DNA of 64,000 nt, taken from assembly GCA_043228905.1 (NCBI GenBank), contig JBHGNT010000008.1, forward strand, positions 7,626,001 to 7,690,000. The letters are read 5' to 3'. Below, one piece after another: positions 2,566-57,160 of the stretch. Source of the DNA: Azolla caroliniana. Its lineage: Eukaryota > Plantae > Polypodiophyta. Positions within the stretch are counted from its first letter, which is position 1, and each line of letters opens with the position of its first letter. A model generated the notes under the pieces. The model saw nothing but the letters and a program-made list of their open reading frames with translations, was not told where the DNA came from and did not search any database. A program made the position numbers and the translations under genes.

Positions 2566-2619
2566 TGGCTTAATGGTAAGCCATTTGACTCCTAACTTGG
2601 AGGTGCAAGGTTTGAATCC
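2566..2619 (+). promoter_or_regulatory. tRNA-like Pol III A-box/B-box module inside the C2 LTR, antisense to the element
   Basis: A box TGGCTTAATGG 2566-2576, B box GGTTTGAATCC 2609-2619, 32-nt spacing as in tRNA genes. Confidence 0.6.
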
Positions 2620-3332
2620 ATACTTGCCCTCCTTGTATATGTATATATTTTTATATATTTATTTTATCTAGTCGCCGGTTCGCCGGATGCCGCCGCTGCC
2701 GCCGCCGGATTGCGGTCGGATGCCCGGCTCCATCGCCGGTCCGGTTTTGGTTGACCAAAACCCTTTTCGAGTAGCTAGCCACCTCCACTCTAAGTTCAAG
2801 TTACCTTGAACTCTCTATGCTCCACACATAGACACAAAGATAATATCTTTTGCTCCACCTTATATATGATGAGAGCTGTATTTGTCGTGCCTATGTGGGA
2901 TATCTCACAATTTTCTCTTTTCTTTTCACAAACTTTATACCCTCATATCTTGACATTTAGTTGTCCATTTCTCGTGTAATAAAGTGCATTCGAAACCTCC
3001 ATCATTTGTACTTAGATATTGAAAATGTTATCTTCACAATTATTGTATTACATGATTCATACTCGGTTTTGTACGTTTTATGGGATTTTCACACTATTGC
3101 CGAAAATCTTCACGACATCCACCCCCACCAAACCGCACGTCCTCCGGTACGTGCCAAGAAGAGAAGAAGTGAGATTTCGACTACGATGATCAATTAGATT
3201 CCTCCATGTCTTCATTTTCATCCGGCCTATTATGTTCATCGTTGAGGTAATCGAGGTCAGGATCCTTGTCTTGTCTTTTCTTGAAAAGCTTTACTCTTTT
3301 TCCCGCAATGGGTACGACCAACCTTGATCCGT

Positions 3333-4244
3333 CTAGTTTCGCAAGGTGGTAACCGCCTCTCGAAGGCTCGCACAATCCCTTCTCATGTGGTCCATGCTAT
3401 CGCACCACACGCATCTAAAGGGTTCTTTTCCTTTAGGGCCCCGACGATTCATGTTGGCTAGAGTGACCTTCTCGAACTTCTTCGCTAACTCTTCGATGAT
3501 ATCGTCATCAATCTTCTTTTCTTCCACGTTACTTTGTCTTGGTGGCTCAGCTACTTTCGGCGGTCTTGCTTTCTCCGTGGTAGTCGGTCCCGTCATGTCG
3601 GTGTCATCAACCCATTGGCAACGCTTGTCGAGCCTATTGCATGCTCGCTTCACCGCAATCCAGTCCGCTACGAGCCCATTTGCTTGGGTATCATCTTCGA
3701 GAAGAGTCCCCAACTCCCGTCTATCCTTTATGTCCACGGCCTTCAAGAAGTACAAAGTCTTGTCCTCTTCAAGCAATACTTGGTCCGTATTGGGGAGACG
3801 ACTAAACATCTGGTCGAATTCGTCGTACACCCTCGAGACGCTCATCTTCTTATTCTTCTTCTCTATCCACTTCATCAGGGCATGTCGAGTCATCCTCATT
3901 GAGTCTTCAGTCACGAACTCCGCTAGTATCGTTTTCTCAAACTCAGACCATGTTGTCTTTCCTTCTTGAAGCTCGATGACGCGTCTTTGGATGTTGTTGG
4001 CGACAACTCTCTTGAAGCTTGCGATTTGACGTGCCTCGGACACGTCCCTTTGATTCATCTCCCTCTTATATGCATCAAGGAACTTCGTAACGTTCCTTCC
4101 ATCGAATTGGCCCTCGAGCTCTACGACACGATCAACAGCCTTCTCCACGCTCGTGTCGTTGTCCCGAGATCTCATCATTTGCTCGACGATTAGCATCATC
4201 CTTTCGAGCTCTCCCGCTTGGTTGCTTGAGGACGCCATCTCCAA
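3333..4244 (-). CDS. gypsy gag with CCHC zinc knuckle (open 303-aa ORF)
   Basis: FDGRNVTKFL... and CVWCDSMDHMRRDC; homologous to 7111-7640. Confidence 0.8.
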   Translation of the reverse strand: MEMASSSNQAGELERMMLIVEQMMRSRDNDTSVEKAVDRVVELEGQFDGRNVTKFLDAYKREMNQRDVSEARQIASFKRVVANNIQRRVIELQEGKTTWSEFEKTILAEFVTEDSMRMTRHALMKWIEKKNKKMSVSRVYDEFDQMFSRLPNTDQVLLEEDKTLYFLKAVDIKDRRELGTLLEDDTQANGLVADWIAVKRACNRLDKRCQWVDDTDMTGPTTTEKARPPKVAEPPRQSNVEEKKIDDDIIEELAKKFEKVTLANMNRRGPKGKEPFRCVWCDSMDHMRRDCASLREAVTTLRN

Positions 4245-4917
4245 GTATTAATTATATATATGATGAGAGCCGTATTTGTCGTGCCTATGTGGGATATCTC
4301 ACAATTTTCTCTTTTCTTTTCACAAACTTTATACCCTCATATCTTGACATTTAGTTGTCCATTTCTCGTGTAATAAAGTGCATTCGAAACCTCCATCATT
4401 TGTACTTAGATATTGAAAATGTTATCTTCACAATTATTGTATTACATGATTCATACTCGGTTTTGTACGTTTTATGGGATTTTCACACTATTGCCGAAAA
4501 TCTTCACGACAACGCTCTCTCTTTTTCTTGCACCAACAAGAAAATGACAACCACAATCAACAATTTGCCCTAAGTCATATTTATACTAATATGACTTTTC
4601 GGCTATTTACAAATATAGTCTCGATGGACTTTCATAAACATATTTACGAATATGTCTCTTCATCCGGTTCATACCGGGTCTTTACCATCCGACTCTCCGT
4701 AGCCGGGTACTCCTCATCCGGTTCATACCGGGTCTGCACCATCCGGCTCTTCGTAGCCGGGTACTCCTCATCCGGTTCATACGGGGTCTGCACCATCCGG
4801 CTCTCCGTAGCCGGGTACTCCTCATACGGTTTCGGCCTCGGCTTATCGGCCTCGGCCGAGTTTGTTCATCGGCACTGTTCTTCTCCCTTCCCATCTGGAG
4901 GGACCTGTCTCCCAACA

Positions 4918-6460: not shown

Positions 6461-7097
6461 TATTTCGCGACAATGTTGGCCTACGATATGTTTACATCAT
6501 GACATGATGTTATGACTATTTGTCTGACCTTATCCTATTTCTTTGCCAGAAATGATCATTCAATGGCTCATAATAACGACCCGATGTCATCCGTTCAAGC
6601 GGAAGGAACTCAAGGAAATCCTATTGGGCCAATATCCATTGAGTCATATTTCTTACAAATACAAAATTTCCTTAGTTCAACCGCACATCAAATGTCCGAA
6701 CTTTGGCAATATCATAGTGCTCTCAAGGCATGTGTCATTTAGTGTTGAGTGACAAGCTCAACATTGGGTGCGTAACACGGTACGTTGTCGTGAAGATTTT
6801 TGGCAACGGTGTGAAAATCGTGTGGAACAAACAAAATAGAGAAAGTGTAATGAGCACTCCAACATTTGTAAATAAAATAAGACTAAAGCCTAGTAGCCTT
6901 TGAGTCCATACAAAGGGGTGCAAGCAAGGCGTGAACCTTGCACCTCCATGGTGATGTACATCTTGTCTCGTAAAACTAAAGTGAAGGGTTCAATCTCTAT
7001 CTCAATCTCTCTCAATCTCTTCATCCATCTATTTATCTTCAATACTTTCTTGCTTATGCTATTATAAACATCGAATCCTTCCGGTCCAGGACCCCGA

Positions 7098-10000
7098 TGT
7101 CGAGTCACGGATGACTCGACATACGCTAATGACATGGATCGAGAAGAAAGGGAAGAATATGTGTGCGTCTGGAGTATATGCCGAATTCGACCAAAAGTAC
7201 AACCAACTTCCGAGTGTTGATCAACGAGTTCTCGATGGAGATAAAGTCCTACTATTCCTAAAGGCAGTGAATGTTAAAGATCGGCAAGAATTGTGCAACC
7301 TTTTGGAGGACGAAACACAACCAAATGGTTTGGTAGCGGACTGGGCGGCGATGAAGAAGGCTTGTAGCCGTCTTGATAAGCATCGACAATGGCAAGAGGA
7401 AAATGATATGGAGAATCCACAATCGTGGAGGAGGAAGGCGCCTATGACAATCGAGCCTAGCAAGCTGATCGACAATTTCGACAAGAAAGTGATGGAAGAA
7501 TCCATAATCGAAGAGCTCTCCAAGAAGTTTGAAGCGGTATTGTTGGCCAACTTAGGTCGATGCGGGCCCAAGGGAAAATAAGCGTATAGATGTTTGTGGT
7601 GCGACAGCTTCGAGCACTCACGAAGGGAGTGCACTGACTTGCAAAACGCGATTCACAAGAACGTCGTCTATTTGGACGGCAACATGATTCATTCGAGCGA
7701 GACCCGGAAGCCACTACGAGTGAACTTCGGAAGAGGCGGGCTGAAAAAGATCGTGGAAGAGGAAGATGCAAGGCATGTAGAAGCCATGCACTATGCCGCA
7801 TCGGCCGGGATACGAGTTGGAACAGAGAAACTAAAGACGATCAAGCCGGGAGTTGGGTTTTGGCCAATGGTATTTGAGTGCGAAAAGAAAGGCGAAATCG
7901 ATTTGAAGGATCTACAAGTTGCTGATCGGAATGTGCGACGAGTTACCGGATGGTCAGATCCAGTTGACGATAAGACAAGCTTTGTGGAGGTTGTGTGTGA
8001 CAACTATGAAGCTCTTATTGAAGAGAAGAGGAAAAGAACCGGTGAAGAAGATGGCACATCAAAGCATCACAATACGAGGAATGCAGGGAAAGAAGGACAA
8101 GCCCAACCTATGCCACGAAAAGAGATAGGAGAAACAAGCATGAAGCCCGGTGGATCGAGCCAACCTTCTCAGATAGAAGTCGATGAATCTGTGAAGAAAG
8201 GAAAAGAACGAGCGGCGCCGACTTAGAAGCTAAGGTCGGACATAGAACAAACAACCGATTTGCAGTAGGTCCTTGAGGAGAAGGTTTTAGACAATCATGT
8301 CGACTTTACTTTGAGAGACCTACTTGGGATCTCTAAGAAGGAGTTCCACGATACTATCATGGACTTGATTAAGTGGAAGAGGCAACAAGCGGATGAAGAG
8401 GAGGTGAAAACAAGTGCCATAACTATGGCAAGTTCGGAAGAGGAGAAAGAAGAAGAAGTGATGGTGGACAACCATTACTCTTGGCCTCATTGGGCAAGAG
8501 CAACAACGGAGACGCCGGTGAAGATCGGGGAGAAGAAAGAGACCGTGGTAGCTTTGATTGACCATGGTTCCGAGATTAACCTCATGTCGACTAAGGTCTA
8601 CAAAAAGGGAAGATGGCCGATTAATACAAACCACGAATGGAAGATTCGAGCGGCAACGAAGGCCACAGAGGACTTGTACGGAGCTTGTCCCAATGTTAAA
8701 GTCACGATTGGGGATGTGGAGATGGATCAACACTTCTTCATGCAATAATCGGTTTCGCATCCTGTCATCCTGGGTCAACCATATTTCACATCATCCAGGA
8801 TGGAGACCAAGGTGTTCGATAATGGAGCAGCCTTCGCGTGAATCAAGAGTCTTGACAATCAAAGATCCGTTCAATTCCTAACAGTGCGAGCTAATCATGA
8901 AAGAAATCAAGATAGTCTTGGAGGCGAATCCCCAGATTTTTAGAGTGGACTATTGAAGCATGGGGCACAAATAGTCCGAGCGATCGCAAGTCCCCACAAG
9001 GGAGTAGAGCGTGTGGATTGCGAGGAGAAGCAACATGTGTCACACCTAGTGGTGCATGTAAACTAGTACTACCCGACAAGAAGGACAAGCATCGGAGACA
9101 AGACTTCGAGAAGATATTGAAATCGAGGATGTCGTGGACTTGAGCTCCATCAACATGTACGCTATCATCGAAACATCTTGATGAAGGAAGCTGACATCAA
9201 CGCAAAATATAAAACGGTGGATAGGAAGATCAAGCTAGTTGTGGTTCCGCTACTGGAAGATAGCTTGCAAAAGATGAAGGAAGTCGCTAATGATCCAAGC
9301 TTAAGAGATCCAAAGACAATAGGTCATGTCTTCACCGAAGAGACGAAGGGGAAGTTACGAGTTGGTAGGGAGAATTTCCTCCTCCCTGAAGAGGAGCGAA
9401 TGTTTCGCGACATGCTTGAGAGACATGGGAAAACTTTCACATTTTTCCCACAAGAAATCGGTTGTGCTGATCCAAGGAAAATAGAGTCGATGGTAATCTT
9501 CACGGTGCCGCACGGGCCTTGGAATTTGAAACTGATATCGGTTCCAATAGCACACTTATCGAAGCTGATTGAGCTCTTAAAGGAGAAGGTGGATATGGGA
9601 ATTTTTGAACCATTAAATACTCCCTATTCTAATAGGTGGTTCACAATGCCGAAGAAGAATGGATCATTGTGATTCATCAAAGATCTTCAACCCGTCAACA
9701 AGGTGACAATTCAAAATGTTGGAATCGGTCCGAGCGTGGACGAATTTGCCGAGGCGTTTGCAGGCCGGTCCATCTACTCCATTGGCAATCTCTACTCCGG
9801 ATATGACCAATTCCAGTTGGCAATCGACAGTCGTGACATTACGACCATGAGGACTCGGATCGGGCTCGTGTGGATGTGTACCTTACCTCAAGGTGCAACG
9901 AACTCGGTGGCTCATATGGTGAATGCCATGAACAAGGTCTTGAAGGATTGCATCCCGGACATCATGATGCCATTCTTGGATGATATTCCGATAAAAGGAT

Positions 10001-13000
10001 GTTTGGATGAGGAGAAAGATGAATCGAAAGATAAGGAAGGGTGTAGGAAGTTCGTCGCGGATCATATGAAAGATTGCGAGAAGGTGCTTCAAAGGCTTGA
10101 AGATGCGAATTTGACATTTTCGGGAGAAAAATCCACATTCGGGCAATCAGAGATCTTGGTGGTAGGTCACTTGTGTGGAGCATACGACCGGAAGCCTTCG
10201 CCATCCAAGGTGAACGCGATCCAGGACATGAAAGAAGAATGAGTAAACCAAACGGAGGTTCGAAGGTTCCTTGGAGCATGCGTGTTTTATCATATTTGGA
10301 TTCCACACTGTGCTCATGTCGCCAAGCCTTTATATGGATTGCTAAAGAAAAGAATGAAGTTCAAATGGCAAGACGAGCACAAAAACACGATGCGAAGATT
10401 GAAGAAACTACTTCTTGAAGCTCCAGTACTAAGAAACGCCTACTATACTGAAGGGAAGCCAATTTATGTGACTGTAGATACGAGCCCAATTGGAATCGGG
10501 TGGGTCATCAATCAAGAAGGAGAAGATAATGCGTGGTATGCCATCCGGTTCGGAGAAAAGGTTCTCAACGAACGACAATGAGGATACGCCCAAGTCAAGC
10601 GGGAACTTTGGGGTATTGTGTCGGCAGTGAAGACGGACAGAGACTACTTGATCGGGTCAGAAGTGATAATTGAGATAGATTGTCTCCCAATCCTCAGGAT
10701 GATCTCAGGATGTGCGACACCATATCTAGCTATGCTAAGGTGGATCGCCTATATCAATTCTTTAAACCCAGAGATCTGCCATATTGCAGGGAAGAAGAAC
10801 GCCATGGCTGACTTGCTGTCGAGGGCAAGATTTGAGAATGAAGGTGACATGGTTTCGGAAGATGAAGACGTCACCCTCGACTTCTTCAAGATGGCTTGAC
10901 TATCGGAGGAAGACAAGGGCACGCTAACCCTCCATGCCTTCAACGAGGATGAGTACGAAGGGGAGTGGTTACTTATCGGCATATTCCTAAGAACAATGAC
11001 GACGGATGCTTCGTTGAAGAAGGAGGAAGCCCTACGAATCCGGAAGAAAGCTTACCAATACTTCTTGAAGGGAGGATTCCTTTGGCGACACCCAAAAAGA
11101 AGGACATGAATACCACGTCGAGTGGTGGTGAAGAAAGAAGAGCAAGTGACACTAATGACCGAATTCCACGAGAGTGCTTGGGCAGGTCATAGAGGAACAT
11201 GGGCGACGTTCGAGAAGTTGAACGAGAAGTACTAGTGGCCAAGCATGTACAAAGATGTACTCCATTTCATGTCTACATGCGAAACATGCCAAGTACATTC
11301 GAATATACATCATCATGATGAGCTACGACCGACATACCCGCTCACCATACACTTCAAATGGATGGTGGATTTGGTCTCAATGCCAATGGGAGTGGGACAA
11401 ATGAAGTACTTAGCTCTGGCAAGAGAAGACTTGACAAATCAAGTGGAAGGATGGGCCTTGACAAATAAGACGACGTTGGCTGTTTGCAAATTTCTACTCG
11501 GGTTGTCTGCAGATACAGATGTGTGGGACAGATAATCGCCGACTGAAGGGAGCTGGATGCACACGAAGCAACAGAGCTTTTCGAACGACTAGGCGTGAAG
11601 CTCTCCCTCACGACTGCCTACAATCCAGAAGTGAATGGGAAAATCGAGTGAGGGCATGCACCTATCATCAAAGCCATCGTACGAGCATGCAACGGTTGAG
11701 TCGAGAATTGGCCACGACTATTGCCCTATGCCTTGTGGGCTGACAGAAGGACACACAACTCGGTGACAGGGTATATGCCAATGGAGCTTATGTATGGACA
11801 AAAGCCGGTAATGTTCATCGAAAAGACAATCACCTCATGGGTAGCGATACCATGGGAGAACAAGATGAGCCAAGAAGAGTTATTTGCGGTACGGATAAGG
11901 CAACTTGAAAGAAGACATGAAGATCAAGAAAAAGCACGAAAGATGATGGAGGTAGCCCGAGTGAAGAACAAAATTCGGTTCGACAAGACGCATCGACTGC
12001 GTCCCAAGAAGATCGAAGAAGGAGATTGGGTATTGATCTGATGGGAACCCAACGCCCCTTATGCACAAAGCTCGGCCGCAACCGAGATTCTTTTCATACA
12101 CAGAAAACAGGAAACGAAATGCACGCGACACAAAGGAGAGAAAAGGGTACACAGAATGTTTACGTGGAAAACCCCAAACTAGGGGAAAAAACCACGGCAG
12201 CCCACAGGCTGCAAACTGTCACTATGTAGGAATATACAACAGTGAGTTCATTGAGGCACCGACCTCGTGCTCACAATGTTTACGTGGAAAACCCCAAACT
12301 AGGGGAAAAAACCACGGCAGCCCACAGGCTGCAAACTGTCACTATGTAGGAATATACAACAGTGAGTTCACTGAGGCACCGACCTCGTGCTCACAAATCT
12401 TCGCCACAGGCGGCAGTTACAACAGAGGCAACGACCTCATCTCTCTCTCTCTCTGTACAGTTACGCACTCTCTCTTCTTCTTGCACCAACAAGGAAGAAT
12501 GACAACTACGATAACTAAAAGTTTGCCCTAAGTCATATTTATACTAATATGACTTTTCGGCTATTTACAAATGTAGCCTCGATAGGCTCTCAGAAACATG
12601 TTTACGAATATGTCTCATCATCCGGTTCATACCGGGCTTGCACCATCCGGCTCTCCGTAGCTGGGTACTCCTCATCTGGTTCATACCGGGCCTGCACCAT
12701 CCGGCTCTCCGTAGCCGGGTCCTCCTCATACGGTTTCGGCCTCGGCCGAGTTCGTTCATCGGCACTGTTCTTCTCCCTTCCCATCCGGAGGGACCTGTTT
12801 CCCAACATGATCTATGACAACAGCCTTGACAATCAATACAGTACAATAAGAAAGTTCGCAAGAAGATGGTTCGGACCGTATGTGGTGACAAGTGCCAATG
12901 ATAATGCCACATACCACCTTGCGGAGCTAGACGGATCAAGGTTGGCCGTACCCATTGCGGGGAAAAGAGTAAAGATTTTCAAGAAAAGACAAGATGAGGA

Positions 13001-13073
13001 TCCTGAGCTCGATCACCTCGACGATGAAGATAATAGGACGGATGTGAATGAGGACGTGGAAGAATCTGATTGA
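7098..13073 (+). pseudogene. gag-PR-RT-RNaseH-IN of family C with many stops
   Basis: CxWCDSFEHSRREC, ALIDHGSEINL, LPQGATNS, PFLDDIPIKG, VTVDTSPIGIG, KWMVDLV, PYALWADR, RWFGPY. Confidence 0.88.
12039..12807 (-). repeat. Solo LTR of the Tnt1-like family with an internal 120-bp tandem duplication (~12155-12394)
   Basis: TG...CA termini, perfect TSD TGATC (12034-12038 / 12808-12812); interrupts C1 integrase at GDWVLI|YDNSL. Confidence 0.93.
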
Positions 13074-13145
13074 TCACCGTAACCGAAATCTCGCACTTTC
13101 TCTTCTTGGCACGTACCAGAGGACATGCGGTTTGTTGAGGGGGGA

Positions 13146-13765
13146 TGTCGTGAATATTTTCGACAACGGTGTGAAAATCATGTGGAACAAACAAAATCGA
13201 GAAAGTGTAATTAGCACTCAAACATTTGTAAATAAAATAAGACTAAAGCCTAGTAAACTTTGAGTCCATACAAAGGGGTGCAACCAAGGCTTGAACCTTG
13301 CACCTCCATGATAAGAGACGAATTAACTTACCACTAAAGCCACTACTAAGTGCTGTACATTTTGTATATTTTCTTTTCATATTCAATATTTTGTAGGAAG
13401 CAAACATATAAAAACCGTGGGCACAAAACCATGGTTTTAGCCCATGGTTTTAGCCCGTGGGTTTAGCCCATGGTTTTTGCATGGAGAAACCTATAAAAGC
13501 CTATAGTGGGGCTTGTGTAAGGGGGCAAGTGATGTAAGTAAAAAAAAGTTTAATCAAAGATCGAAGTTATCCTAATGGTGATGTATCTTGTCTCGTAAAA
13601 CTAAAGTGAAGGGTTCAATCTCTATCTCAATCTCTCTCTATCTCTTCATCCATCTATTTATCTTCAATACTTTCTCACTTACGTTGTTAAAAAAATCGAA
13701 TCCTTCCGGTCCAGGACCCCGGTGGTCCCGCTTCATTTCACGAACACGCGAGGATTTCCTTGACA
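13146..13765 (+). repeat. 3' LTR of C1, with an antisense A/B-box module (13287-13342) and ~13-bp repeats at 13411-13480
   Basis: Matches 6786-7097; TGTCGTGAA...TTGACA. Confidence 0.88.
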
Positions 13766-14733: not shown

Positions 14734-14766
<33 letters not shown>

Positions 14767-15039: not shown

Positions 15040-15070
15040 AAGTGGTATAAGAGCGACGGTAACACAGAAA

Positions 15071-19144: not shown

Positions 19145-19154
19145 AGGGGGAGTT

Positions 19155-19487: not shown

Positions 19488-19518
<31 letters not shown>

Positions 19519-40411: not shown

Positions 40412-43400
40412 TTAAAGACGACGAGTGGAACGAGTCGGCGCTAATTGCGGACCGGGTTTGTCCGGATACTTTCGGTGGAAATCAGCAAGAAGATCCTGTG
40501 CATTGGCAACATGCTCGACGGGTTCCCAAGTACGTTCGCTCGGACTATAACTGAGCCAATCGACCAAGTAATAAAGTTTGTTGCGAACAAGTTTGGAATC
40601 GAGGATGGAAGCAACTTCATACTCCGGGCCGGCGTCCAACTCCAGCGGGGGCGGCGGTGGTGTCACACGATCGGGAATGGTGTTTGCTTTATAAGGTTCA
40701 AGAAGAGAACAATGGAAAACCGGATGTATCTGAAGCTGCAGAGGGACATCAAGGCGGAAGGTGACATCATTAATCTTACCCGTAATACGGAAGGGACTGA
40801 GTCGTCGATAATCCAACTTGTCGCACGGTCGAGTAGTCTTGATGTGACGACGTAAGAGCCATACTCGATCTCCGATGGCAAAAGAGGAGGGAATCCGATG
40901 ACGATCCCCATAAGTCTTCTATGTGTGTTGAGCATGACAAAGGTGAGTAGAGAGATCCATCTGGATCTTGCGTAGCCTCTCCAAATGATCCTCGGCACGA
41001 GGGTTGGTAGGTAGCTCCAGAGTGTCGATCACCGACCAACGAGGATGGAAACCGGTATAAGCGAAAAATGGGGAGACCTGAGTCAAGGAGTGAATAGCAT
41101 TATTATACGCAAACTCCGCAAAGTGGAGAATCTCGGCCCAATCGTCCTGTTGATAACTCAGGAAACACCGGAGTTATTGCTCCAGCGTTTGGTTTGTTCG
41201 TTCCGCCTGCCCGTCGGTCTGAGGATGGTAACCGGAGGAGAGATTGCAGGAGACCTTGAGCATCTTGAAGAGATGCTGCCAAACTTTGGAGACAAATTGC
41301 GGGCCTCGGTCACTGATAATACTGTCTGGGAGGCCATGATGCCAAAATACCTCATGCATAACAAGAGCGGCGGTTTCCTCGCTAGTGATGGCTTTAGTAC
41401 ACGACACAGAATGTGCCATCTTCGTGTATCGATCGACGACGGTTAGGATAACATCGAACCCCTTCGAGACCGGCAGATCTGTGATAAAATCAAGACAAAT
41501 AGACTGCCACGACTTACTTGGAATCGGTAAGGGTTCCAACAAGCCATATGGATGGTGTCGTGGCATCTTTGCTCGGCAGCAAGCATCACAGGTCCGAACG
41601 TAGTCGTCGACAAAACGGCGCATGTGGGGCCACCAAAAAGATCGCTGCACTAGCTCCAACGTCTTAGTACTACCGAAATGTCCCGCCGTATGGGTGTCAT
41701 GACAATGTTGGATGATTTGAAGGCGACAGGAGCAATCAAGGACATATACACGCTTTTTAAAGAATAACAAACCATCATGATATTCGAATTGTCGGTAGTC
41801 AATACCTGGTTGTTGAGACCGAGAACAGGATACCTGAGAAGTATCAATGTGCGCCAGGATGTCTTGAGCAAAACTATCCATCTTCAAGGTTGCACGTATG
41901 TCATCGGTAATCCGTGAATCCATCGGGATGTGAAAAATCCGCGTTGTGTGCAATCGTGTTGGTCCCAAGATTACTTGCTTTTGATTATCAAATGTTGCGT
42001 CACCAAGACGAGGTGCAAGATATGAACGCCGTGATAGTGCATCTGCTTTTCCTTGCTGCTTCCCCGGTCGATATGTGATTTTGAAGTCGAAACGCGTGAG
42101 GAATTGCGCCCACCGAGCTTGCCTTCGATTTAGTACGCGAGCGTTCTGAAAATAAGCAAGATTTTTATGATCGCTAAAGACAATGACCTGATGTGGAGAG
42201 CCCTCTAAGAAATGCCGCCATTGTACAAATGAATCCACGATGGCTAATAACTCCTTGTCATGTATTTCGTAGTTGATTTCTGCGACATCGAATTTGCGCG
42301 AATGGAAAGCCACCGGATGCAACTCTTCTTTATCGCCTTGTTGAGAAAGGATGCTACCAAGGGCGAAATCTGATGCATCGGCCTCCATGATGAATGGTTT
42401 GCTTGTATCCACATGAGCTAGAATCGGTGCTGATGTAAAGGCTTTCTTAAGATGCCGAAAAGCCATATCTGCTTCTATGGACCAAAGAAATGCTTGACCC
42501 TTCTTCGTAAGTTTATGTGAGAGGTAAAATAATCTTCGAGTAATCCTGTATAAACTTACAGTAGAAGTTAGCAAAACCTAGAAAACATTGTACATCTCGT
42601 ATTGACCGTGGAATTTGCCACTCTAGTACAGTTTGGATTCTAGCTGGATCCATGGCGATGCCTTTTGAGGAGATGACGTAGCCTAGAAATTCCACTTGCT
42701 TGCAGTCAAAGATACATTTTTCTAGCTTGGCATAAAGACCATTCTCACGGAGTCGCTTTAGTACTAATAGTACATGAGAATCGTGCTCTTCCTGGGTCTT
42801 CGAATAAATCAATAGATCATCCAGATAAATGATCAAACAGATATCCAAGAGATCTCTGAATATATCATTTGCCATGTGTTGGAAGATTACGGGTGCATTG
42901 GTTAGGCCAAACGGCATAACAGTATACTCGAAATGCCCATACTGCGTGCGAAAGGCGGTCTTCCACTCATCTCCCGGTCAGATCCGCACGAGGTTATACG
43001 CTCCTCGTAGGTCAATTTTAGTAAAAAACTTGGCACCATTAACTCGCTCTAAAAGACTTGATATAAGAGGAAGTGCATACCTATTCCGGATGGTGACTTT
43101 ATTCAATCCGCGGTAATCAACGACAAGACGAAGTGAGCCATCTTTCTTCTTGACAAAGAAGATGGGTGCACCGGCCGGAGATTTCGAATGGCGGATGAAC
43201 CCGCTTGCCAAGTTCTCCTCTATGTAGGCTCGAAGAACTTCTAACTCGGTGGGTGACAAGTTGTAAATTGGTCCCCATGGTGGCTCGGTTCCTGGTTGTA
43301 AATCGATGGGACAGTCATAGGGACAGTGATGAGGAAGGGTACCGGCTTTACCTTGTCAAATACATCGGCATAAGGATAATATTTTGCTGGAAGTTGTACT

Positions 43401-43990
43401 GAGGAGTCCTTCTTAATAGTGCTGGAAGGATGTACTGATATTGCAAATAGGAACATTGCCTCCTTGGGTCCTTCGCGTAGTTGATGGAGTGAAATGGTCG
43501 AAACTTGGTGAGTTGATTCTTGGGGTGGTCGATATCAGACTTCTCTTGTTCTCCAATCTATGGCTGGATTATGTAATTCAAACCAAGGTAATCCTAGGAC
43601 AATGGGATGCTCTGGATTACTAATTATATTAAATGATATTACACACACAAAACTACCTTGGACAACTTGAATGGGTTCTGATTCTTCTACAATATTCCCG
43701 GAAGCAATGGGACGACCATCAATGACTACTACAGATGCGGGACAAGGAAGTTTTCTTAAGGATATTTGAGAAGCTTGGGCAAAATTTCGATCCATGAAAC
43801 AGGAATTAGCTCCGGAATCTAAAAGTGCTAGGACGGGTACTGGGGGAGTACTTTTAGTACTAACAATGACTTGGGCTAGGAACACATTGCTAACTTGCTT
43901 GGAAGGAATGGAACCACTAATGAGTTGTACAGATCTAGGGCCGTTGTCCAACCAAACGGCTCCTATTTTGGCTGGACTCAATTGTTTAAC
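40412..43990 (-). pseudogene. pol PR-RT-RNaseH-IN-chromodomain of I
   Basis: LLDSGA, MPFGLTNAP, YLDD, EADASD, SDRGPQF, EYEVASILDSK...YLVDW; several stops and frameshifts. Confidence 0.92.
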
Positions 43991-45134
43991 TCTTCATCTA
44001 ATTGACTAAGGATTTCAAATTTATTTGAGGTACTTGGGCTATTAGTACTATGAATACTATCAAACACTCTATTAGTACTATTAATACTATCAGACACTCC
44101 TAAGGGAAGAATTGACTCGGGTTTAGTACAGGCTACAATTTGATTTACCTGTCTTCTTGGCCTATGGGGACAATTGATTGCGATATGCCCTGGTCCACCG
44201 CAATAAAGACATAATCGATTTGCACGTCGTCGTTGCTTTTCTTCTTCCGATAACGGGCCGCGTCGACGCATGGTATCGATCTCCATCGGTGTCGAAGTAT
44301 TTGCTTGAGGTATGTCTCGTGCAAACGGTCTAGCCGCGACTACGGCGTAAGTGGGCTCCGGCCTAGCGCGTGGTATCTGTAATTGACGTTCCGAACGCCG
44401 TTCGAAAAGGCGGTTGTCACATCGGACCGCTCGACTGATTGCCTCCGTAAGAGACTTTGGTTCTTCGGGGATGGTTAGAAGTAGATCTTTGACATCATTT
44501 CGCAGGCCATAGCGAAACTGCTCCATTAGTGCTTGATCATCCCAGGGTATGTCGGAAGCGAGTAGGCGGAAATCTGCCGCGTAGGCAGAGGCTGGACGAT
44601 CGCCTTGACGCAATCGCCGGATCTCGTTGATCTCCGTCCTGATGCTGTCGGTGTCTCCACAGCAGGATTTGAACTCACTAATAAAATCTTCAAAGTTATT
44701 AAACAAGGGCGATTGTTTTTCTAGAAGCGGAGCGAACCATGCTAAGGCTGAGCCGCTAAGCAATGTGCCTATTAAGCCGACTCGGGATGCATCAGTGGGG
44801 TATCGGGAAGGATGCATTTGGAGGACTAATCGTACCTGATTAAGGAATCCCCTGAATTGCGATTGCGTTCCATCAAATTTCACAGGAAGTCCAATCTTCG
44901 GCTCTTTATGAAATCCTTGGGGACTTGATCCTTGTTGTTGCAATGCCACTTCCAGTTGTTGCACCTGTAACGCTAACTCCCCATGTTGTTGCTGCGTTTG
45001 TTGCTTTTCTAGAGCGATTTGTTGCAGATCCCTATCAGCCGTTGGTTTTCTTGTTCCAGGGCAACAAACTTTTCTTTTAGGCACTGTAACTCGGAGAAAA
45101 CGGATTGATATTCTTGGGCGCTAACAGTAGCCAT
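43978..45134 (-). pseudogene. gag of I (1-nt frameshift near the N-terminus)
   Basis: MATVSAQEY..., PVKFDGT, PMEID, CLYCGGPGHIAINC. Confidence 0.9.
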
Positions 45135-46044
45135 AGTAGAGGGAAAAGGGTAGGAGGATGAGGGAGAACGACAAGTAGGCTGGAGGAAAGAGCAAAATTG
45201 GTTCAAACTGTCAGGAATAGTACTAAAGCAGAGATGGAATTAGTACTAAGAAGAGCAATACAATTAGTACTAAGAGGACGGGACTGTGTAAGATTCCCGA
45301 GAGAGAGGAAGTGAGAAGAGGAGAGAGAGAGATAGGATGATGACAACAGCTCTTATATGATATGAAAGATAAGTACAAATCGGCTAAGAGGCTTAAGACT
45401 GGTGTTGAACCAATTTGGTTCAAAACAATGCCTTGTGCCTCCTTTTATAGTGTTTTTAGGAATAATCCTGAAGCTTCTAGAATGTTCCAGAGAGATCTGG
45501 AATATACAGATTCAATTTTCTATGATAAAGCATAAATGAAAATAATATCCTACAAATTACAATTCATAGTCTAATGGTAAGAGCTCCACCCATGTAGCAT
45601 AAGGTCATGGGTTCAAGTCTTGCTATATCATGACACATATCATGACAGTTATCTCCTAAACGTAATATAGACCATCGTATAGATATTGTACCTGGTGTTG
45701 CACCAATAAGAATACCTCCGTATCACTTAAATCGATCCGAAGAGGATGAGATATCTAAGCAACTCAAGGACTATTTACGAATGGGTTATATACGTTATAG
45801 TAAATCTCCATGGGGTGCACCTGTTCTCTTGGTAAAAAAGAAAGAGGGCACATGGCGTATGTGTATTAATTACCGACGCCTGAATAAAGTGACGATCAAG
45901 AATTCATATCCATTGCCTCGGGCTAACGATCTAATTGACCGTCTTCGGGGAGCTCGATATTTTACGAAACTTGATCTCCGTATGTGCTACCATCAAATTC
46001 GTATAAGTGAGGAAGATGTTCCTAAAACAACATTTCGTATGCGC

Positions 46045-48992: not shown

Positions 48993-51900
48993 TGTCAAGA
49001 TTCGAACTCTTGACACGACCATGTTATAATCTAGTATTATGAGTTAACCAAGATATCTAGTACATAGTTATATATGTAATTGGTCCTTATTATTTACACT
49101 TGGCACATGCATGCATACTGAAAAGAGAGATGATGATAGAAAAGAGAGAGAAGGAAGATATAGAAACCCAAATCTACAAAGATATATTAATAAGGAGTGA
49201 TGATCATAGAAACAAGAGAAAGAAGATACATAAATTCAAGCCTACAAGGATGAATTGATCACTAGAAAAACGCACTACATGAATAGGCAAGAAAAACACC
49301 ACAAGAAAAAAACTCTCCTCACCACCTCACTCTTCTTGCTTTGTATGAAGTTCTCCTCTAGTAGATAAGTTTCGCTTGCTTTCTTTTCCACGCTTTTTTT
49401 AGAGCTTTTCCATCTCCTATTCTTAGCTATGACACAACGATCTTTTAATCGTCATATCTCCCTCATCCATGCTCCAAATTTAGAGGTTTAAAAAGATACG
49501 GATAGCTCACGTCATAAGCTTACTAACCCATATTTACACGTGATATTTGGGTGTCAAACGAGAGAGTTATGAGCGTTTGTTTCTGACTGCTTTTTGGTGG
49601 TCTGCTTTTTCCTTCTTTTACTTTTCTCCATCTTTCTTGCTTTTAGTTTGACTTATACTTGAAACCTTAGCTCGTGCTTTTAGTTTGACTTATACTTGAA
49701 ACCTTAGCTCGTGTTCTTGGCCTTCGGGTGTGAATGCTCCATACCTTATATTTTTGTAGACTTCAATACCTTGAATTCTAAAAACACTTTCACACATACC
49801 TACATGCTCTATTGTAGATTCACATGCGTGCAACAAGTATGCATGCCATGTAGTATAAATAGAGGAGTTCACCTTGAAGGAATTCAAGGTGAGCAACTCC
49901 AGTTATGGAGTCTTTCCTTTAATACTATCTTCTTTCTTGTCCATTTTGTTATCTTCTTGCTTGTCTCTTGAGCTTATGATCCGTGACAGTTTGTTCACCT
50001 TCCCATCCTCATAGCTCTCCCTCTCATAAGCCATAGCTATGTCCGACTCAACTACTGAGTTAGGCCAAATAATGGTAGCCTTACGACAACTACAACTTGA
50101 AAATGAAGCTCTTTGAAATTCTTTACAAGAACTTCAAGTCGGTACCTCCCTATCCTCACAACCCCCGAACCCTAGTCTCCCACAACAACCTTGCCTAGAG
50201 CCCGATCTTCTACCCACATCTAGCCTAGCTTCGTCACAGTTTCTTGAGCCTAAGGTTAGCCTCCCAGAAAAATTTGATGGAACGAGGTCACATTTCCGAG
50301 GGTTCATCAACCAAGTTCGACATATCATTCGGCTACAACCTCAACGTTATGGAGATGGTCTTCGACAAGTCGGCCTTGTGGGCACCCTTCTCTTCGGTCC
50401 GGCCCAAGCTTGGTTTGCACCATTGGTAGAAACCTCGTCACCTCTATTGGAGGACTTTCCCGCCTTCCTCACCGAGTTAGAGACCACATTTGGAGAGACA
50501 GACCGACGACGTACAACTCTTAAGAAGATTTATGCACTCGAACAAGGTTCGCGTGTAGCTTCGGTCTATGCTTCAGAAATTCGACAACTAGCATGCGACG
50601 TCCCTTGGGATGATCAAGCTTTAACTGATCACTTTCGGCGCGGCCTTCGAAGCAATGTCAAGAATCTTCTCTTAAACTTTCCGAACCCCTCCAAGGCGAC
50701 CAAAAGGAAGGATCTTGACACCTTAACCATACAAGAGGGTTTTTTGTTCCAAGATCATCTCTTATACGTCCCAGAGGGCCCATGTCGCACCCGGGTGTTG
50801 CGGGAATGCCACGATGACCCACTTGCAGGTCATTTCGGGGTCGCAAAAACCCTTGAGCTAATCTCTCGGGGGTATTGATGGCGACAAACATGGAAGTTGG
50901 TCAAAGAATACATAAAGAGTTGTGAGGTTTTTGCTCGCTCCAAAGCCATTCATCATCGGCCATACGACTTACTACAGCTGCTTCCATGTCCTCGTCGTCC
51001 TTGGGCCTCTATCTCTATGGACCTTATAACTGATCTACCCTTGGTCAATAGCTATGACTCAGTGTTGGTCGTTGTCGATCGGTTTACGAAGATGGCTCAC
51101 TTCACTCCATGCTCCAAAACCATTTCTGGAGAAGGAATGGTGCATCTACTACTCAACAATGTGGTACGCTTGCATGGACTCCCCGATGATGTCATCTCGG
51201 ATCGCGGATCCCAGTTTGTCTCTCACTTCTGGCAGTGCCTGCTACAAACTTTAGGCATCTCTGTCAAGTTGTCCTCCGCTTATCACCCCCAAACTGACAG
51301 TAAAACGGAGCGTGTCAACCAAATCCTTGAGTAGTATCTTCGGTGCTCGATTAGTTACCAACAAGATGATTGGGTAAACTTACTTTCGCTCTCGGAATTT
51401 GCCTACAATAATTCTCTCCATGCATCGACTGGCGTCACTCCCTTCTTTGCCAACTATGGTTTACATCCTCGCTTCAACATTTCCCTTCCTACCACTTCCG
51501 TGAACCCTTCGGTGGAGGATCGTGCCCGCATTTTGGAAGAACTACATCATGATTTATCCTTGGAGCTTAGTCTTGCTAGTGAACGATACAAGAAGCAGGT
51601 TGATCGCCATCGATCTTCCACTCCACACTTTGTCATTGGAGACATGGTCTGGTTGTTACGTCGACACATCTCTACTACTCGTCCATGTGCGAAACTTGAT
51701 TACAAGAAGTTGGGACCATTCCGTATCATCGAGTGCATCAATCCCGTCGCCTTCCGGCTCGCCCTTCCATCCCACTTCCGGATTCACGATGTTTTTCATG
51801 TCTCCCTCCTCGAACCCCATTATGCTTCCCAACTCCCAAGACGTCAGGCCCTACCACCACCACCTGTGCAATTGACGACAGGGGAGGAATACGAGGTCGA

Positions 51901-52449
51901 CCAAATCCTTGACTCGCGTTGGCACCGTCGACACTTGCAATACCTCGTCCTATGGAGGGGTTACCCCATGTCTGAGGCCACGTAGGAGCCAGCGGCAAAT
52001 TTACAAAATGCCGCAGAGGTCGTCCAAGATTTTCATCACCGATATCCCCACAAACCAGCGGCCGATTTGGGAAGGTGGCGTAGGAGGGGGGATAATGTCA
52101 AGATTCGAACTCTTGACACGACCATGTTATAATCTAGTATTATGAGTTAACCAAGATATCTAGTCCATAGTTATGTATGTAATTGGTCCTTATTATTTTG
52201 CTAGCATCATGTGCATAGTTGCTCCCTTGTAGTATTTACACTTGGCACATGCATGCATACCTACATGCTCTATTGTAGATTCACATGCGTGCAACAAGTA
52301 TGCATGCCATGTAGTATAAATAGAGGAGTTCACCTTGAAGGAATTCAAGGTGAACAACAGCAGTTATGGAGTCTTTCCTTTAATACTATCTTCTTTCTTG
52401 TCCATTTTGTTATCTTCTTGCTTGTCTCTTGAGCTTATGATCCGTGACA
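48993..52449 (+). mobile_element. Non-autonomous chromovirus M: gag fused to IN-chromodomain, with PR-RT-RH deleted
   Basis: LTRs 48993-49988 and 52096-52449, PPT 52082-52095, perfect TSD GCTGA; PEKFDGT, CHDDPLAGHFG, SDRGSQF, EYEVDQILDSR. Confidence 0.92.
49119..49794. repeat. Solo LTR N of a family not otherwise present, inside the 5' LTR of M
   Basis: Absent from the M 3' LTR; TG...CA termini; TSD CATAC (49114-49118 / 49795-49799); ~38-bp tandem duplication at ~49639-49713. Confidence 0.8.
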
Positions 52450-55400
52450 GCTGAGGTTGTTGCAGTAGATTGTCGTTGGATTGGATACCTCCACTTGCAG
52501 ATCCTTAAGCAGCCGCTTCAACCAAATGGCTTCGCATGTCGCGACAACCGCTCCTCTATACTCGGCTTCGGTGCTCGACAACGCAACTGTTGGCTACTTC
52601 TTGCTACTCCACGCGATCGCGGCACTCCCAAGAGAGAACGTGAAACCGGACGTGGATCGGCGATTGCCGGCGTTTCTGGCCCAATCAGCATCAGTGTAAC
52701 CGACCAACTGCTCGGCAATATGAGCCCGATATAGTAGCCCCTAGTCCTTAGTGCCACTAATATACAAGAGTACGTGTTGTGTGCACTGAAGGTGCTCCTT
52801 GGCTGGTCGCGCCATGAACTGACTAATCACCCCGAACGGGTAGCTGAGATCTGGTCGATTGATGGTCAAGTAGATAAGGCTTCCTACGATTTGTCGGAAC
52901 CTCATCAGGTCGCATACCTTTCCGGAATCGGGGTGAAGCTTGACGGTTCTATCTAGAGGAGTCGAGACGGACTTACAGTTGGCCATCCCGAATTTGAAGA
53001 GCATATTTAGCGCATAATGACGTTGGCTAATCAATATGCCTTCAGAAGTATGAATCACTTCCATCCCGAGGAAGTAATGAAGGTCCCCCAGATCCTTCAT
53101 GTCGAATGATGCCACGAGCTGGAGCTTCACACGGTTAATTTCATCGAGGTCGGCGCCGGTGATGACCAAGTCATCAACATAAAGTAAAATGCTAACCGGC
53201 CGGAGTCGACCTTTCCGGATGAACAGTGAGGAGTCCAATTTCGACGTCCCAAAGCCCAACTGACACAATCGTTGCGTGATCTTCGCGTCCCAGGCACACG
53301 GGTCTTGCTTTAGTCTGTAAAGGGACTTCTTCAATCGGCACACCACCGAAGTGTTCGTTCCGGAGTGAAATCCGGGGGGTTGTACCATGTACACCTGTTC
53401 CTCAAGCTCACCTTGCAGGAACGCATTCTTTGCATCCATCTGATGTAAGTGCCACCCCTTTGCCGCAACTATCACGAGCAAGACACAGACTGTTGTCATC
53501 TTTGTGACTGGCACAAACGTCTCATCGTAGTCGATGCCGTGTTGCTGCGCGTAACCTTTCGCTACTAACCGGGCCTTGTAGCGGTTGACCAAGCCGTCAG
53601 TGTTGTACTTCGGCTTCACACCCTTCGGTGCGTCAACTAAGTCCCAGGTTTCATTCTCCGCTAATGCACACATCTCTTCCTCCATTGCGTCACGCCAATT
53701 CGCGTCCTTCGACGCTTCTGCGTAGCTCTCTAGCTCACGCACTTCCGCTACACGCGCCATGTACACATAGTGATGTGCCATGTACTTGTTGTAACCGAAC
53801 CACACAACAGGGTTCTTCATGCGGGTAGATCGGCGTAATTGCTCATTAGCCGAAGTTGAGGCCTTCTTAGCCGACGCGGTCTTTGCTCCCGAAGACCCGT
53901 CATCACTTTCCTCGGAGTCGGACTCATGTCGATCCAACTCGCCCTTATCCGTGCCGTACTCCAGCATTTTCTTGTTCCCTTTTTCCTTGTGCATAAGCTG
54001 TCTCCTCAGCTTCCTGCACGGGGAATGCACGACCGAGTCTCCACTACTCGCCGGCTCTTCATTGGACTGGTCGAAGCGACTCAGTCGTCCATTCGGTCCG
54101 CTTAACCGAAACAAAATCGGACTCTCTTCGCGGGTCTTGATTTCAGGCTCATCCGGAGGCATCTCGGCCTCGTTGACCTCATCGTCAGAACTCGGATGTG
54201 AGGTGAGGTCCAGAGTCAGAGGCAAGTACCAGGACACGGACTAGTCAAACACAACGTCACGGCTCACGCGCGCTTGTTTGGTGCGAGGGTTATAACACTT
54301 ATAACCCTTCTACTAGTCCGAATAGCCAACCAACATACACTTCTCGGCTTTCGCGTCTAGCTTCCTCCGTTTTTCCTTCGGCACATGCACATACGCAATG
54401 CTACCAAAAACTCTCAAGTGTCGTAGATTCGGCTTCCTTTCGAAATACTGCTCATGCGCCAACACTTTGTCTCCGATCCGATTCTGGATGTACACCGCGG
54501 TTCGTACCACCTCGGCCCAATAAAACTTGGGCAAGCTTTTCTCCTCCAGCATTGCCCGTGCCGCTTCTACAATTGACCGGTTCTTCCTCCTGGCCACGCC
54601 GTTTTGCTCCGGCGTGTATCTACAACTGAATTCGCGCCGAATTCCCATCTATTGTAGATAGCCGTTGAATTGACCGGAAAAGTATTCTTTTTCCGCCATC
54701 CAACCGCAGGCACTTGATCTTTCGTCTTGCTTCCGTTTCCACGAACCCTTTGAGGTCCCAGAAACAGTCGAAGACTTCACTCTTCTTCTTGATGAGATAG
54801 ATCCACATGTGCCACATATAGTCATCGATGAAGGAGACAAAATATCTACTCCCGCCAAGACTAACGTTCTGTGCGGGCCGGATGTTCTGGCTCCAGTTAC
54901 GCTCGTTAGGGAAAGGAAGTCAGTGTTGCTTCCCTAGCTGGCAGGCTTCACAAATTTGTGCCTTCCGGCCACAAAATTTGGGCAATCCGAACACCACCTA
55001 TTTCGATTGCAGGTCCTGAAGCCGTTGATAGTTGACGTGGCCTATCCGCTTGTCCCATAAGTCGATATCCAACTCGACTTTTTGTCCTTTTGCGAACATT
55101 ACGGTGCCACCGTCACTAGAGTCGAGGATAAACATCATCCCGTCTCTACGCCCTTGCGCAATAACTTGGCCTTCTTCCTCAATGAAGCACCCAAGATGCG
55201 CGAACCGAACTTGCATCCCCTGGTCGACGATCTATCCGACCGACACCAAGTTCTTTGTGATTTTCAGGACGTGTAACATGTTCATGAGTTTCCCTTTTTG
55301 CCCGACATGGCTCAAGGGAACTTCACCGACATTCGCGATCGGATGCGGAGTGTTGTCTCCTGTTGCGACTACTCCCGGTTGCATCGGTTTTTCCAGGTAC

Positions 55401-57033
55401 GAGAACCATTCCTTGTGGCACGTCATGTGGTTTGACGCGCCGGAGTCGACGTACCACACCTTATCCGACTCTGGGGTGATCTTCTTCATCGAGTTTGCTT
55501 CGTGTCTCGTCACGAAGATTGACCCTTTTTCGGCTCCTTCCTCGTAGTGCGATCGTTGCCGATTACCCTTCTTGGTCTGTTCGGAACCTGATCCAGACCC
55601 AATTCTCTCCGAATCGGCGCGTTTTTTCCAGCACTGGCTCTCCCTGTGGCCTTTCTTGCCACAGTACCATCATTCCGTGGCAGATTTCCCTTGCCGGTTC
55701 TCATCGCCTCGACTCCCCCTGTTTTCGAAGGGTTCGGAGTCGCTGTCGGCATCACTTCGGTGCCTTCTTCCTTGGTCCCGTCGGCCGCCTCCATTGCGCA
55801 CCGACTCGCCTCATCTGCCACGACCACGGGGCCTATCTCCGTCCGTGTATATCATCTTGTTGTCGGCATGCGTGCTCGTCGAGGCACCTGCGTGCTTTTC
55901 CTCTATAAGGAGCATCGATTGTAGGTTGAAAAACAACGACGTATTCTCCCGTGTACACACAACAATTCGGAATGCTCCGAACTTCGACGCCATTCCCCCG
56001 AGACAGATCTGCACCATCTGGCCTTCCTCGACGTTCACATTGATGGAGGCTAAGGAGTCACATATATCTTTGATCTTCGAGGTGTAATCGGTCACCGACA
56101 AGTCGCAATTTCGTAGGTTGCTCAGCTCCTGTCGGAGTTGAAGTTTCCTGGCTGTAGTGCTTAGAGCGAAAATCCTCGGCGTTTTCGCATCCCAAATGTA
56201 GCTTAGGAGTTGTTCGCCCACACAAGACGCGAAGCAGTACAGTACTCTGCTCGCCGACTGTTCCCATGCTAGGAAATCTCTGTGTGTCGATTCGGGTCCT
56301 ATGTCATTTGCTCCATCGACGTAGCTCCAGTAACCGTGCCCGAGCAGGTACTGGTGCATCTTGTAGGACCAAGATGCATAGTTGTTTCTGTTGAGCTTCT
56401 CCGTCGAAAGCAAGCTAGCCATGCCTCTATCCATCGGTTTTACCTGTTCTTCTTTGTTGGTTTTTCTTTTCAAGCTATGTCGGTTGTAGAGGTTCTCAAC
56501 CCTCACGCTCTGATACCATGTAAAAAGAATAGCGTGTGGAAGCAACTAGAAAACCGAACACCGAGAATATGCAGGTTTAATGGAGAGCTTGAAAATACAC
56601 AGTACGCGGGAAAGACAGAGAGCTAAATTCAAAAATAATACTCAATCTGTATATAGTATGTGCTCAACAAGCACTTTTATACAAGTCCATACGGACGGAC
56701 AGAAGTACTTCAATGCTCATAAGTGAGCTCTACACTAACTTCCAAAATGTATTCCTACGGGGAATATCTTCCCAACGGCCTCGCGGTTTACGCACCGCTA
56801 CAGCTTCTCGTTGCGTACCAGTCTGCACACCGGTTTACGCACCGGTTTGGCCTAACCGATCGATCCCAACTGATCTGGTTCTCGGCTTGCACAGCCGATC
56901 CGGCCAATGTTGAGCTTGTATCTCAACACTTTGTTTTGTGGGCTCCACCGACGGTGCTAACAGAGTGAGCCATTGCTCCACTGCTGTGTACATCTTTTTG
57001 CCATCTTTTATTGAGACGATGGCTGTCATAACT

Positions 57034-57087
57034 AGACTCGAACCCATAACCTTTTGTTACACGGGTCGAGACTTTACCATTAGGTTA
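57034..57087 (-). promoter_or_regulatory. tRNA-like A/B-box module at the U3 start of L (antisense)
   Basis: Minus strand TAACCTAATGG...32 nt...GGTTCGAGTCT. Confidence 0.55.
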
Positions 57088-57160
57088 TGAATTGTAATTT
57101 GAAGGATATTATTTTCATTTAGGTTTTATTGGGAAATTGATGTATATTCCAGATTTCTCT

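What the first reader, a model, noticed from the sequence alone, without database searches (positions are those of the whole stretch)
2566..57087. Antisense tRNA-like Pol III modules in the LTRs of unrelated gypsy families
Seen: A-box/B-box pairs with tRNA-like 32-33 nt spacing, always antisense to the element. They occur in C2 at 2566-2619 (TGGCTTAATGG/GGTTTGAATCC), C1 at 13287-13342 (TGGCTTTAGTGG/GGTTCAAGCCT), I at 40320-40373 and 45567-45620 (TAGTCTAATGG/GGTTCGAGTCT) and L at 57034-57087. M starts with a T-arm-like hairpin, TGTCAAGA-TTCGAAC-TCTTGACA (48993-49015). The boxes and the GGTAA after the A box are kept while the middle diverges. Established: A/B boxes recruit TFIIIC, tDNAs act as heterochromatin barriers, and Cassandra TRIMs carry 5S Pol III promoters in their LTRs. 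Inference: several lineages have captured a tRNA/SINE head as an insulator or outward-facing Pol III unit that keeps the LTR promoter open in heterochromatin. I know of no description of this in autonomous plant gypsy LTRs.
Basis: partly seen in the sequence, partly recalled or inferred. Interest (0 to 1): 0.78.

Follow-up and report, generated by a model that had tools for sequence, protein, structure and literature searches.

The report
Retrotransposon promoters carry tRNA-gene boxes
Two unrelated groups of protein-coding plant jumping genes keep the two promoter boxes of a tRNA gene, facing backwards beside their own promoter, and these boxes likely dock the tRNA-gene factor TFIIIC to keep that promoter open in silenced chromatin, a use not found in the papers searched.

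Summary
The modules are real: 6 A+B box pairs in the window against at most 2 in any of 200 shuffles. They belong to two lineages, not four or five: Tcn1-like chromoviruses (I, L, M) and a Phygy-like non-chromovirus (C1, C2). In 77 fetched relatives, 32 of 36 readable LTRs from one assembly set carry the antisense module at the start of U3, 4 carry an M-type remnant, and the 37 loci of another set carry none. Across 16 families the boxes are 61-89% identical, spacer and flanks 34-53%. There is no cloverleaf, no shared fold and no fixed terminator, so the DNA boxes, not an RNA, look selected. Two more modules turned up: a sense one in the C1 LTR and an in-frame one inside pol of relatives. Best reading: a TFIIIC docking site back-to-back with the Pol II promoter; binding, transcription and barrier activity are untested. 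Closest known: Helenus/Cassandra, which are non-autonomous and sense-oriented. This scan noted similar boxes before in fungal Gypsy elements (other genomes).

The parts
2566..2619 (+). A/B-box module in the 3' LTR of C2, antisense to the element; about 550 nt from the LTR start, 181 nt from the TATA box
13287..13342 (-). A/B-box module in the 3' LTR of C1, antisense; 150 nt from the TATA box at 13492
   Evidence: (28.5 bits)
6905..6997 (.). C1 5' LTR: B-box half of the antisense module joined by a deletion to a damaged sense module
40320..40373 (+). module in the 3' LTR of I, antisense
45567..45620 (+). module in the 5' LTR of I, antisense
57034..57087 (-). module in the 5' LTR of L, antisense
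62330..62383 (-). module in the 3' LTR of L, antisense; 113 nt from the TATA box at 62496
48997..49059 (-). degenerate module of M (B box inside the terminal hairpin, A-like box 39 nt away); second copy at about 52101-52163
57024..62774 (+). element L: Tcn1-like chromovirus, open gag (57553-58743) and pol (58716-62327) frames, LTRs 99.8% identical, 5-bp TSD, self-priming site 57481-57492 complementary to 57233-57244
39965..45647 (-). element I: relative of L (76%), broken frames, LTRs 96% identical, 5-bp TSD
48993..52450 (+). element M: internally deleted chromovirus of the same clade
6786..13765 (+). element C1: Phygy-like non-chromovirus gypsy, broken frames, RT 24% identical to L's
2164..4511 (-). 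element C2: gag-only relative of C1, 4-bp TSD of NCGN type

Best explanation
Two unrelated gypsy lineages keep a tRNA-type A box and B box, facing away from their own promoter, and these boxes likely dock TFIIIC so that the LTR's Pol II promoter would stay accessible in heterochromatin. Shown: the boxes, their tRNA spacing, their position 110-190 nt upstream of the TATA box in back-to-back orientation, and their conservation against spacer and flanks. Inferred: capture from a tRNA gene or tRNA-derived SINE; TFIIIC binding to the B box; placement of TFIIIB or of a nucleosome-poor gap in the AT-rich stretch between A box and TATA box; a barrier against silencing from the flank. Every new copy inherits the module in both LTRs, so a copy that escapes silencing would be favoured. 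A defined Pol III RNA is likely not the point.
For: Non-chance: 6 pairs vs at most 2 in 200 shuffles. Family-wide: 19 of 19 family representatives have an antisense B box in the first 75 nt; features not used for anchoring follow (RGTY at tRNA 45-48 in 16 of 19, TGG at 32-33 nt in 13 of 19; shuffle maxima 3 and 4; sense strand 0 and 0). Selection pattern: identity 0.77 B box, 0.73 A-box 3' half, 0.61 whole A box, 0.89 positions 44-48, against 0.41 anticodon arm, 0.53 positions 49-51, 0.34-0.43 flanks (16 families); G53, T54, T55, A58 invariant in 22 of 22 modules, position 59 free, as in the B-box consensus. DNA rather than RNA: no consensus fold, no covariation in three of four cloverleaf stems, T runs 11-350 nt downstream in 13 of 19 and none within 400 nt in 6. 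Tied to the Pol II promoter: TATA match 113-187 nt from the A box in the 12 of 19 where one was found; C2's module is 550 nt from the LTR start but 181 nt from TATA. Repeated gain: second lineage, sense module bracketing C1's promoter, in-frame module in pol whose B box is perfect in 4 of 4 variants while the amino acids around it change. TFIIIC/tDNA barriers are established in yeasts and animals (PMC9540200, PMC13578239, passages).
Against: No binding, chromatin or RNA data at all. [quoted passage not shown] C61, called critical for TFIIIC binding, is T in 4 of 16 families, and G10 is kept in only 5 of 16. The block at 44-48 is better conserved than the B box although it lies outside the classical box; unexplained. 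The T stem shows a weak pairing excess (p 0.07 in 16, 0.009 in 22 modules), a hint of RNA-level constraint. The module inside pol is not beside a promoter. 37 loci of related elements from other assemblies, and six other LTR groups in this window, manage without it. The Phygy-like side rests on two elements plus contig coverage. Related families share ancestry, so counts overstate independence.
Confidence: 0.5

Rival explanations
1. The module is a working Pol III gene: it makes antisense RNA that runs out of the 5' LTR and, from the 3' LTR, back over the polypurine tract into integrase, damping the element's own activity or feeding small RNAs.
For: Both boxes at tRNA spacing; upstream region 81% AT; in L a T4 run would end a 117-nt RNA across the PPT; the L/I subfamily folds into a strong hairpin (z -2.9 to -6.1); BLV carries Pol III genes inside a provirus (PMC12498455, passages).
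Against: Terminator position not conserved, absent within 400 nt in 6 of 19; CAA in 2 of 16, weak 5' half of the A box; hairpin not shared by other families and as strong on the sense strand.
Confidence: 0.17
2. The module serves integration: LTR-borne Pol III boxes act as landing pads for elements that target Pol III start sites (Ty3-like), or tether the element's cDNA to TFIIIC sites.
For: Lead from notes e1-10420520 and e1-10420559 on fungal chromovirus LTRs (unchecked). One solo LTR sits 53 nt upstream of M's degenerate module. One relative lies 115 nt upstream of a real tRNA-Thr gene (L017). In Tcn1 elements the module is within 75 nt of the cDNA end.
Against: None of C1, C2, I, L, M is inserted near a module; only 1 of 9 module-bearing LTR copies in the window has an insertion upstream, in a window full of nested insertions; in L017 an internal fragment, not an LTR end, faces the tRNA; C2's module is far from the LTR end.
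Confidence: 0.13
3. The element RNA, being the complement of a tRNA, pairs with a cellular tRNA during reverse transcription and bridges the RNA ends, as proposed for HIV-1 U3.
For: Antisense orientation and U3 position fit; HIV-1 precedent (PMC9757044, passage and reference listing); conserved 44-48 block is contiguous with the T arm.
Against: L is self-primed and needs no tRNA (PMC6317226). Changes that G-U pairing would tolerate are not favoured: G to A at 45, 46, 52, 53 in 4 of 64 cells and T to C at 47, 54, 55 in 0 of 48, against non-tolerated C to T at 48, 56, 61 in 8 of 48. A58 is invariant although methylated A58 cannot pair (recalled). The sense module of C1 could not pair.
Confidence: 0.1
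4. Functionless relic of SINE or tRNA insertions.
For: Degenerate in M and in some families; lost in one C1 LTR; Kojima proposes SINE insertion as the origin of tRNA-derived LTRs (PMC10886601).
Against: Boxes about twice as conserved as spacer and flanks over families whose integrase C-termini are 52-95% identical to L; same place in 36 of 36 readable LTRs of the set; stems decayed, so not recent separate captures.
Confidence: 0.06

Closest known systems
Helenus TRIMs / TRIMp3 (Kojima 2024, PMC10886601; text parts 1-4 of 6 and one supplement passage read)
   Same: tRNA-derived sequence in both LTRs, conservation centred on boxes A and B, no functional tRNA; one plant family (Selaginella).
   Different: Helenus is non-coding and 311-1263 bp, and in the families seen in the supplement passage the tRNA part is in sense; the paper argues that autonomous partners use Pol II and are unlikely to share LTR stretches. 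Here the carriers are 5.7-7 kb coding elements with a TATA box, and the module faces outward.
Cassandra TRIM (as described in PMC10886601)
   Same: Pol III promoter inside plant LTRs, kept over long times.
   Different: 5S-derived, non-autonomous, drives the genomic RNA; here tRNA-type and antisense.
Yeast tDNA/TFIIIC barriers and TFIIIC-only sites (passages in PMC9540200, PMC13578239; the label ETC is recalled)
   Same: B-box-centred element without a decoding tRNA, next to silenced chromatin.
   Different: Host loci, shown by experiment; not described in plants; here carried by a mobile element and untested.
Bovine leukaemia virus Pol III miRNA cluster (PMC12498455, passages)
   Same: Type 2 Pol III boxes inside an autonomous LTR element.
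   Different: Internal, makes defined hairpin RNAs with terminators; here in U3 with no shared RNA product.
tRNA-Lys3-like sequence in HIV-1 U3-R (passage and reference in PMC9757044; original paper not read)
   Same: tRNA complement in U3.
   Different: Matches the element's own primer; L is self-primed and only promoter-type positions are kept.
Tcn1 chromoviruses and Phygy elements (PMC6317226, PMC2864245; passages)
   Same: Self-priming chromovirus; compact non-chromovirus with NCGN target site.
   Different: The passages read mention no Pol III boxes in their LTRs; 'polymerase III' has 0 occurrences in PMC6317226.

Membership tests
Helenus / TRIMp3 | tRNA-derived sequence with boxes A and B in the LTRs | tested here: met
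Helenus / TRIMp3 | short, non-coding TRIM | tested here: not met
   gag, RT, RNase H, integrase, chromodomain
Helenus / TRIMp3 | Pol III boxes oriented to transcribe the element | tested here: not met
   antisense in U3; only C1's extra module is sense
Type 2 Pol III promoter | B box consensus | tested here: met
   19 of 19 within 1 mismatch of the anchor; C61 to T in 4 of 16
Type 2 Pol III promoter | A box 30-60 nt upstream | tested here: inconclusive
   A14 and TGG at 32-33 nt kept in 12 of 19, G10 in 5 of 16
Type 2 Pol III promoter | TFIIIC binding and Pol III transcription | not testable with these tools
   no chromatin data; no RNA holder listed
tRNA gene | cloverleaf with paired acceptor, D, anticodon and T stems | tested here: not met
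tRNA-derived SINE insertion | body, tail and own target-site duplication | tested here: inconclusive
   no shared sequence beyond position 62 (identity 0.34); no genome to search for a free SINE
Tcn1 chromovirus (I, L, M) | chromodomain and self-priming instead of a tRNA PBS | tested here: met
   chromodomain in I, L, M; 12-nt self-complement shown for L, not found by the script for I or M
Tcn1 chromovirus (I, L, M) | RT-RH-INT tree position with named Tcn1 references | not tested
   no named reference sequences in hand
Phygy (C1, C2) | compact non-chromovirus with NCGN target site | tested here: met
   4-bp NCGN-type TSD in C2, one mismatch in C1 (trait)
Phygy (C1, C2) | tree position with named Phygy references | not tested

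The most novel reading that the evidence does not exclude
Autonomous plant LTR retrotransposons have repeatedly (at least four gains: Tcn1 U3, Phygy-like U3, C1 sense module, pol linker) co-opted TFIIIC sites as portable heterochromatin barriers around their own Pol II promoter, giving the first case of a Pol III-type insulator in plants and a protein-free anti-silencing strategy spread over thousands of copies.
Probability: 0.35. Interest if true: 0.85.

Novelty: new variant of a known kind. Interest (0 to 1): 0.66.

Why it matters
[quoted passage not shown] A 55-nt module, kept by selection in coding elements and absent from close relatives, offers a natural with/without comparison and a direct reporter test of whether TFIIIC sites resist silencing in plants. 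It would also add many TFIIIC sites to the host genome.

Tried and rejected
No whole genome is held, so copy numbers, free SINEs and insertion-site statistics could not be examined. ARAGORN and Rfam: no tRNA call on any module. A shared hairpin pairing tRNA positions 27-35 with the T arm: strong only in the L/I subfamily, mean z -1.0 antisense and -1.2 sense over 32 modules; RNAalifold found no pairs. The cloverleaf count looked positive (5 of 500 shuffles) but included two real tRNAs and a gap offset; redone without them. Expression: no RNA holder listed; run X23 laid nothing and X17 is probably DNA; no evidence either way. Variant tables show 40 of 57 and 40 of 122 rows; none shown falls in a B box, but hidden rows and contig depth make this weak. 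Viral collection: nothing. Prokaryote genomes: 3 chance matches, not followed. Protein searches gave no named plant host. A tree of 42 of 79 integrase-chromodomain rows (near-copies left out) needs 2 changes of the label and does not exclude 1, so the number of origins within Tcn1 is open. Ten paper searches found no description in autonomous plant LTR elements; subscription papers, Repbase notes and preprint supplements were not seen, and Kojima remarks that 'not a few' Repbase LTRs hold tRNA-like parts.

Full report
Setting. The window is a nest of LTR retrotransposons without host genes among the frames tested. No genome is held. The element types point to a non-seed land plant (PMC6317226, passages); notes of this scan say fern or moss (unchecked).

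Observation. The listed boxes are present. Using the published consensus (PMC12498455, passages) the window has 6 pairs with at most one mismatch; 200 shuffles give 0.3 on average, at most 2. A matrix trained on 13 modules from outside the window finds 8 hits of 12 bits or more: those 6, a sense module in C1's 3' LTR (28.5 bits) and its damaged copy (18.8 bits, within the shuffle range, maximum 19.3). Six other LTR groups in the window have none.

Carriers. I, L and M are chromoviruses. L has open gag and pol frames and 99.8% identical LTRs, and a 12-nt match between its primer site and the start of R, the self-priming trait of Tcn1. C1 and C2 are relatives of each other with 4-bp NCGN-type target sites, a Phygy trait; C1's RT is 24% identical to L's. 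So two lineages. Clade names rest on traits, not on a tree with named references.

Relatives. A scan with the integrase-chromodomain end gave 77 loci (the best 80 kept of 350 confirmed): 40 with one id prefix, 37 with another. Of the 40, four have no readable LTR (L019, L026, L040, L074); 32 of the other 36 have an antisense hit of 16 bits or more in an LTR, and 4 are M-type, with B box and a displaced A-like box. The 37 others have no antisense hit; 28 of them had an LTR start by rule, in 6 clusters, none with a B box within one mismatch. Carriers and non-carriers interleave on a tree of 42 of 79 rows (2 changes, 1 not excluded), so presence follows the assembly set as well as descent. Contigs of the 6 run-lays with data cover the L and C1 modules.

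Selection. Among 19 family representatives, all have the B box in the first 75 nt; two features not used for anchoring appear in 16 and 13 of 19, against shuffle maxima of 3 and 4 and none on the sense strand. In the 16 with 32-33 nt spacing (3 dropped: M, L022, L037) identity is 0.77 in the B box, 0.89 at tRNA positions 44-48, 0.73 in the 3' half of the A box and 0.61 over the whole A box, against 0.41 in the anticodon arm, 0.53 at 49-51 and 0.34-0.43 in the flanks. G53, T54, T55 and A58 never vary in 22 modules; position 59 takes all four bases. Two real plant tRNA genes from L017 align in register. B-box figures are partly circular because of anchoring; the 44-48 and A-box figures are less so.

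DNA or RNA. Acceptor, D and anticodon stems pair no better than shuffled columns; the T stem is borderline (p 0.07 and 0.009). RNAalifold finds nothing. A strong hairpin is limited to the L/I subfamily. T runs lie 11-350 nt downstream or are missing, and the plant CAA motif (PMC13578239) is in 2 of 16. A TATA match lies 113-187 nt from the A box in 12 of 19 (none found in 7, some truncated), 150 nt in C1 and 181 nt in C2, whose U3 is about 350 nt longer.

Further gains. Loci L008-L013 carry another antisense module as a 20-27 codon in-frame insertion between protease and RT, absent from L and I. Its B box is perfect in 4 of 4 variants while most encoded residues differ. C1's LTR has modules on both sides of its TATA box, both pointing away from it.

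Mechanism. Shown: sequence, position, conservation. Inferred: TFIIIC binds the B box; the complex keeps the AT-rich gap towards the TATA box open and blocks silencing from the flank, as in yeasts and animals (PMC9540200, PMC13578239, passages); copies that stay expressed spread the module. I give this 0.5; an antisense Pol III RNA 0.17; integration targeting 0.13; pairing with tRNA 0.10; relic 0.06. Against my reading: no experimental data, C61 changed in 4 of 16, a weak A box, the unexplained 44-48 block, a module inside pol far from any promoter, and many relatives without it.

Comparison. Nearest are Helenus and Cassandra (PMC10886601: parts 1-4 of 6, one supplement passage), which are non-coding and sense-oriented, so these elements are not members. 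PMC13570524 and PMC12859917 (passages) cite only those. PMC2864245 (passages) lists TATA and CAAT boxes in a lycophyte Tcn1 LTR and no Pol III boxes in the passages seen. Ten searches found no report for autonomous plant elements. This scan has unreviewed notes of tRNA-type boxes in fungal Gypsy elements, none for this sequence.

Verdict. Real, selected, family-wide, in two unrelated coding lineages; function inferred. New variant of a known kind; interest 0.66.

Noticed in passing
L008:1010-1069 and 6334-6386, L009:4958-5017, L010:517-576, L011:2653-2712, L012:3231-3290, L013:2953-3005: Antisense A/B module inserted in frame in the protease-RT linker of pol; B box kept while the amino acids change.
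   Followed up: partly
window 13568-13622: Sense module downstream of C1's TATA box; the deletion in C1's 5' LTR runs from one module to the other and removes the promoter between them.
   Followed up: partly
L017:552-906: Two real tRNA genes (Asn-GTT, Thr-AGT) next to a Tcn1 integrase fragment, 115 nt upstream of tRNA-Thr.
   Followed up: partly
window 49119-49794: Solo LTR with a 5-bp TSD inside M's 5' LTR, 53 nt upstream of the degenerate module.
   Followed up: partly
tRNA positions 44-48 of all modules: A five-base block before the B box is better conserved than the B box itself and is also in Helenus-1_SMo; possibly an extended TFIIIC site.
   Followed up: no
window 57034-57087, 40320-40373; L001-L006, L027: In the L/I subfamily the spacer has become an inverted repeat of the B-box region, giving a strong hairpin.
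   Followed up: partly
window 4255-4511 and 6786-7099: Both Phygy-like elements have a 5' LTR that lacks its 3' end and primer site.
   Followed up: no
L056:3190-3243: A module-like hit of 29.5 bits in flanking DNA of a locus from the set whose Tcn1 LTRs lack the module.
   Followed up: no
window 14345-14543, 20593-21150, 4638-4845: Tandem repeats of 27-90 nt at the end of several related copia LTRs.
   Followed up: no
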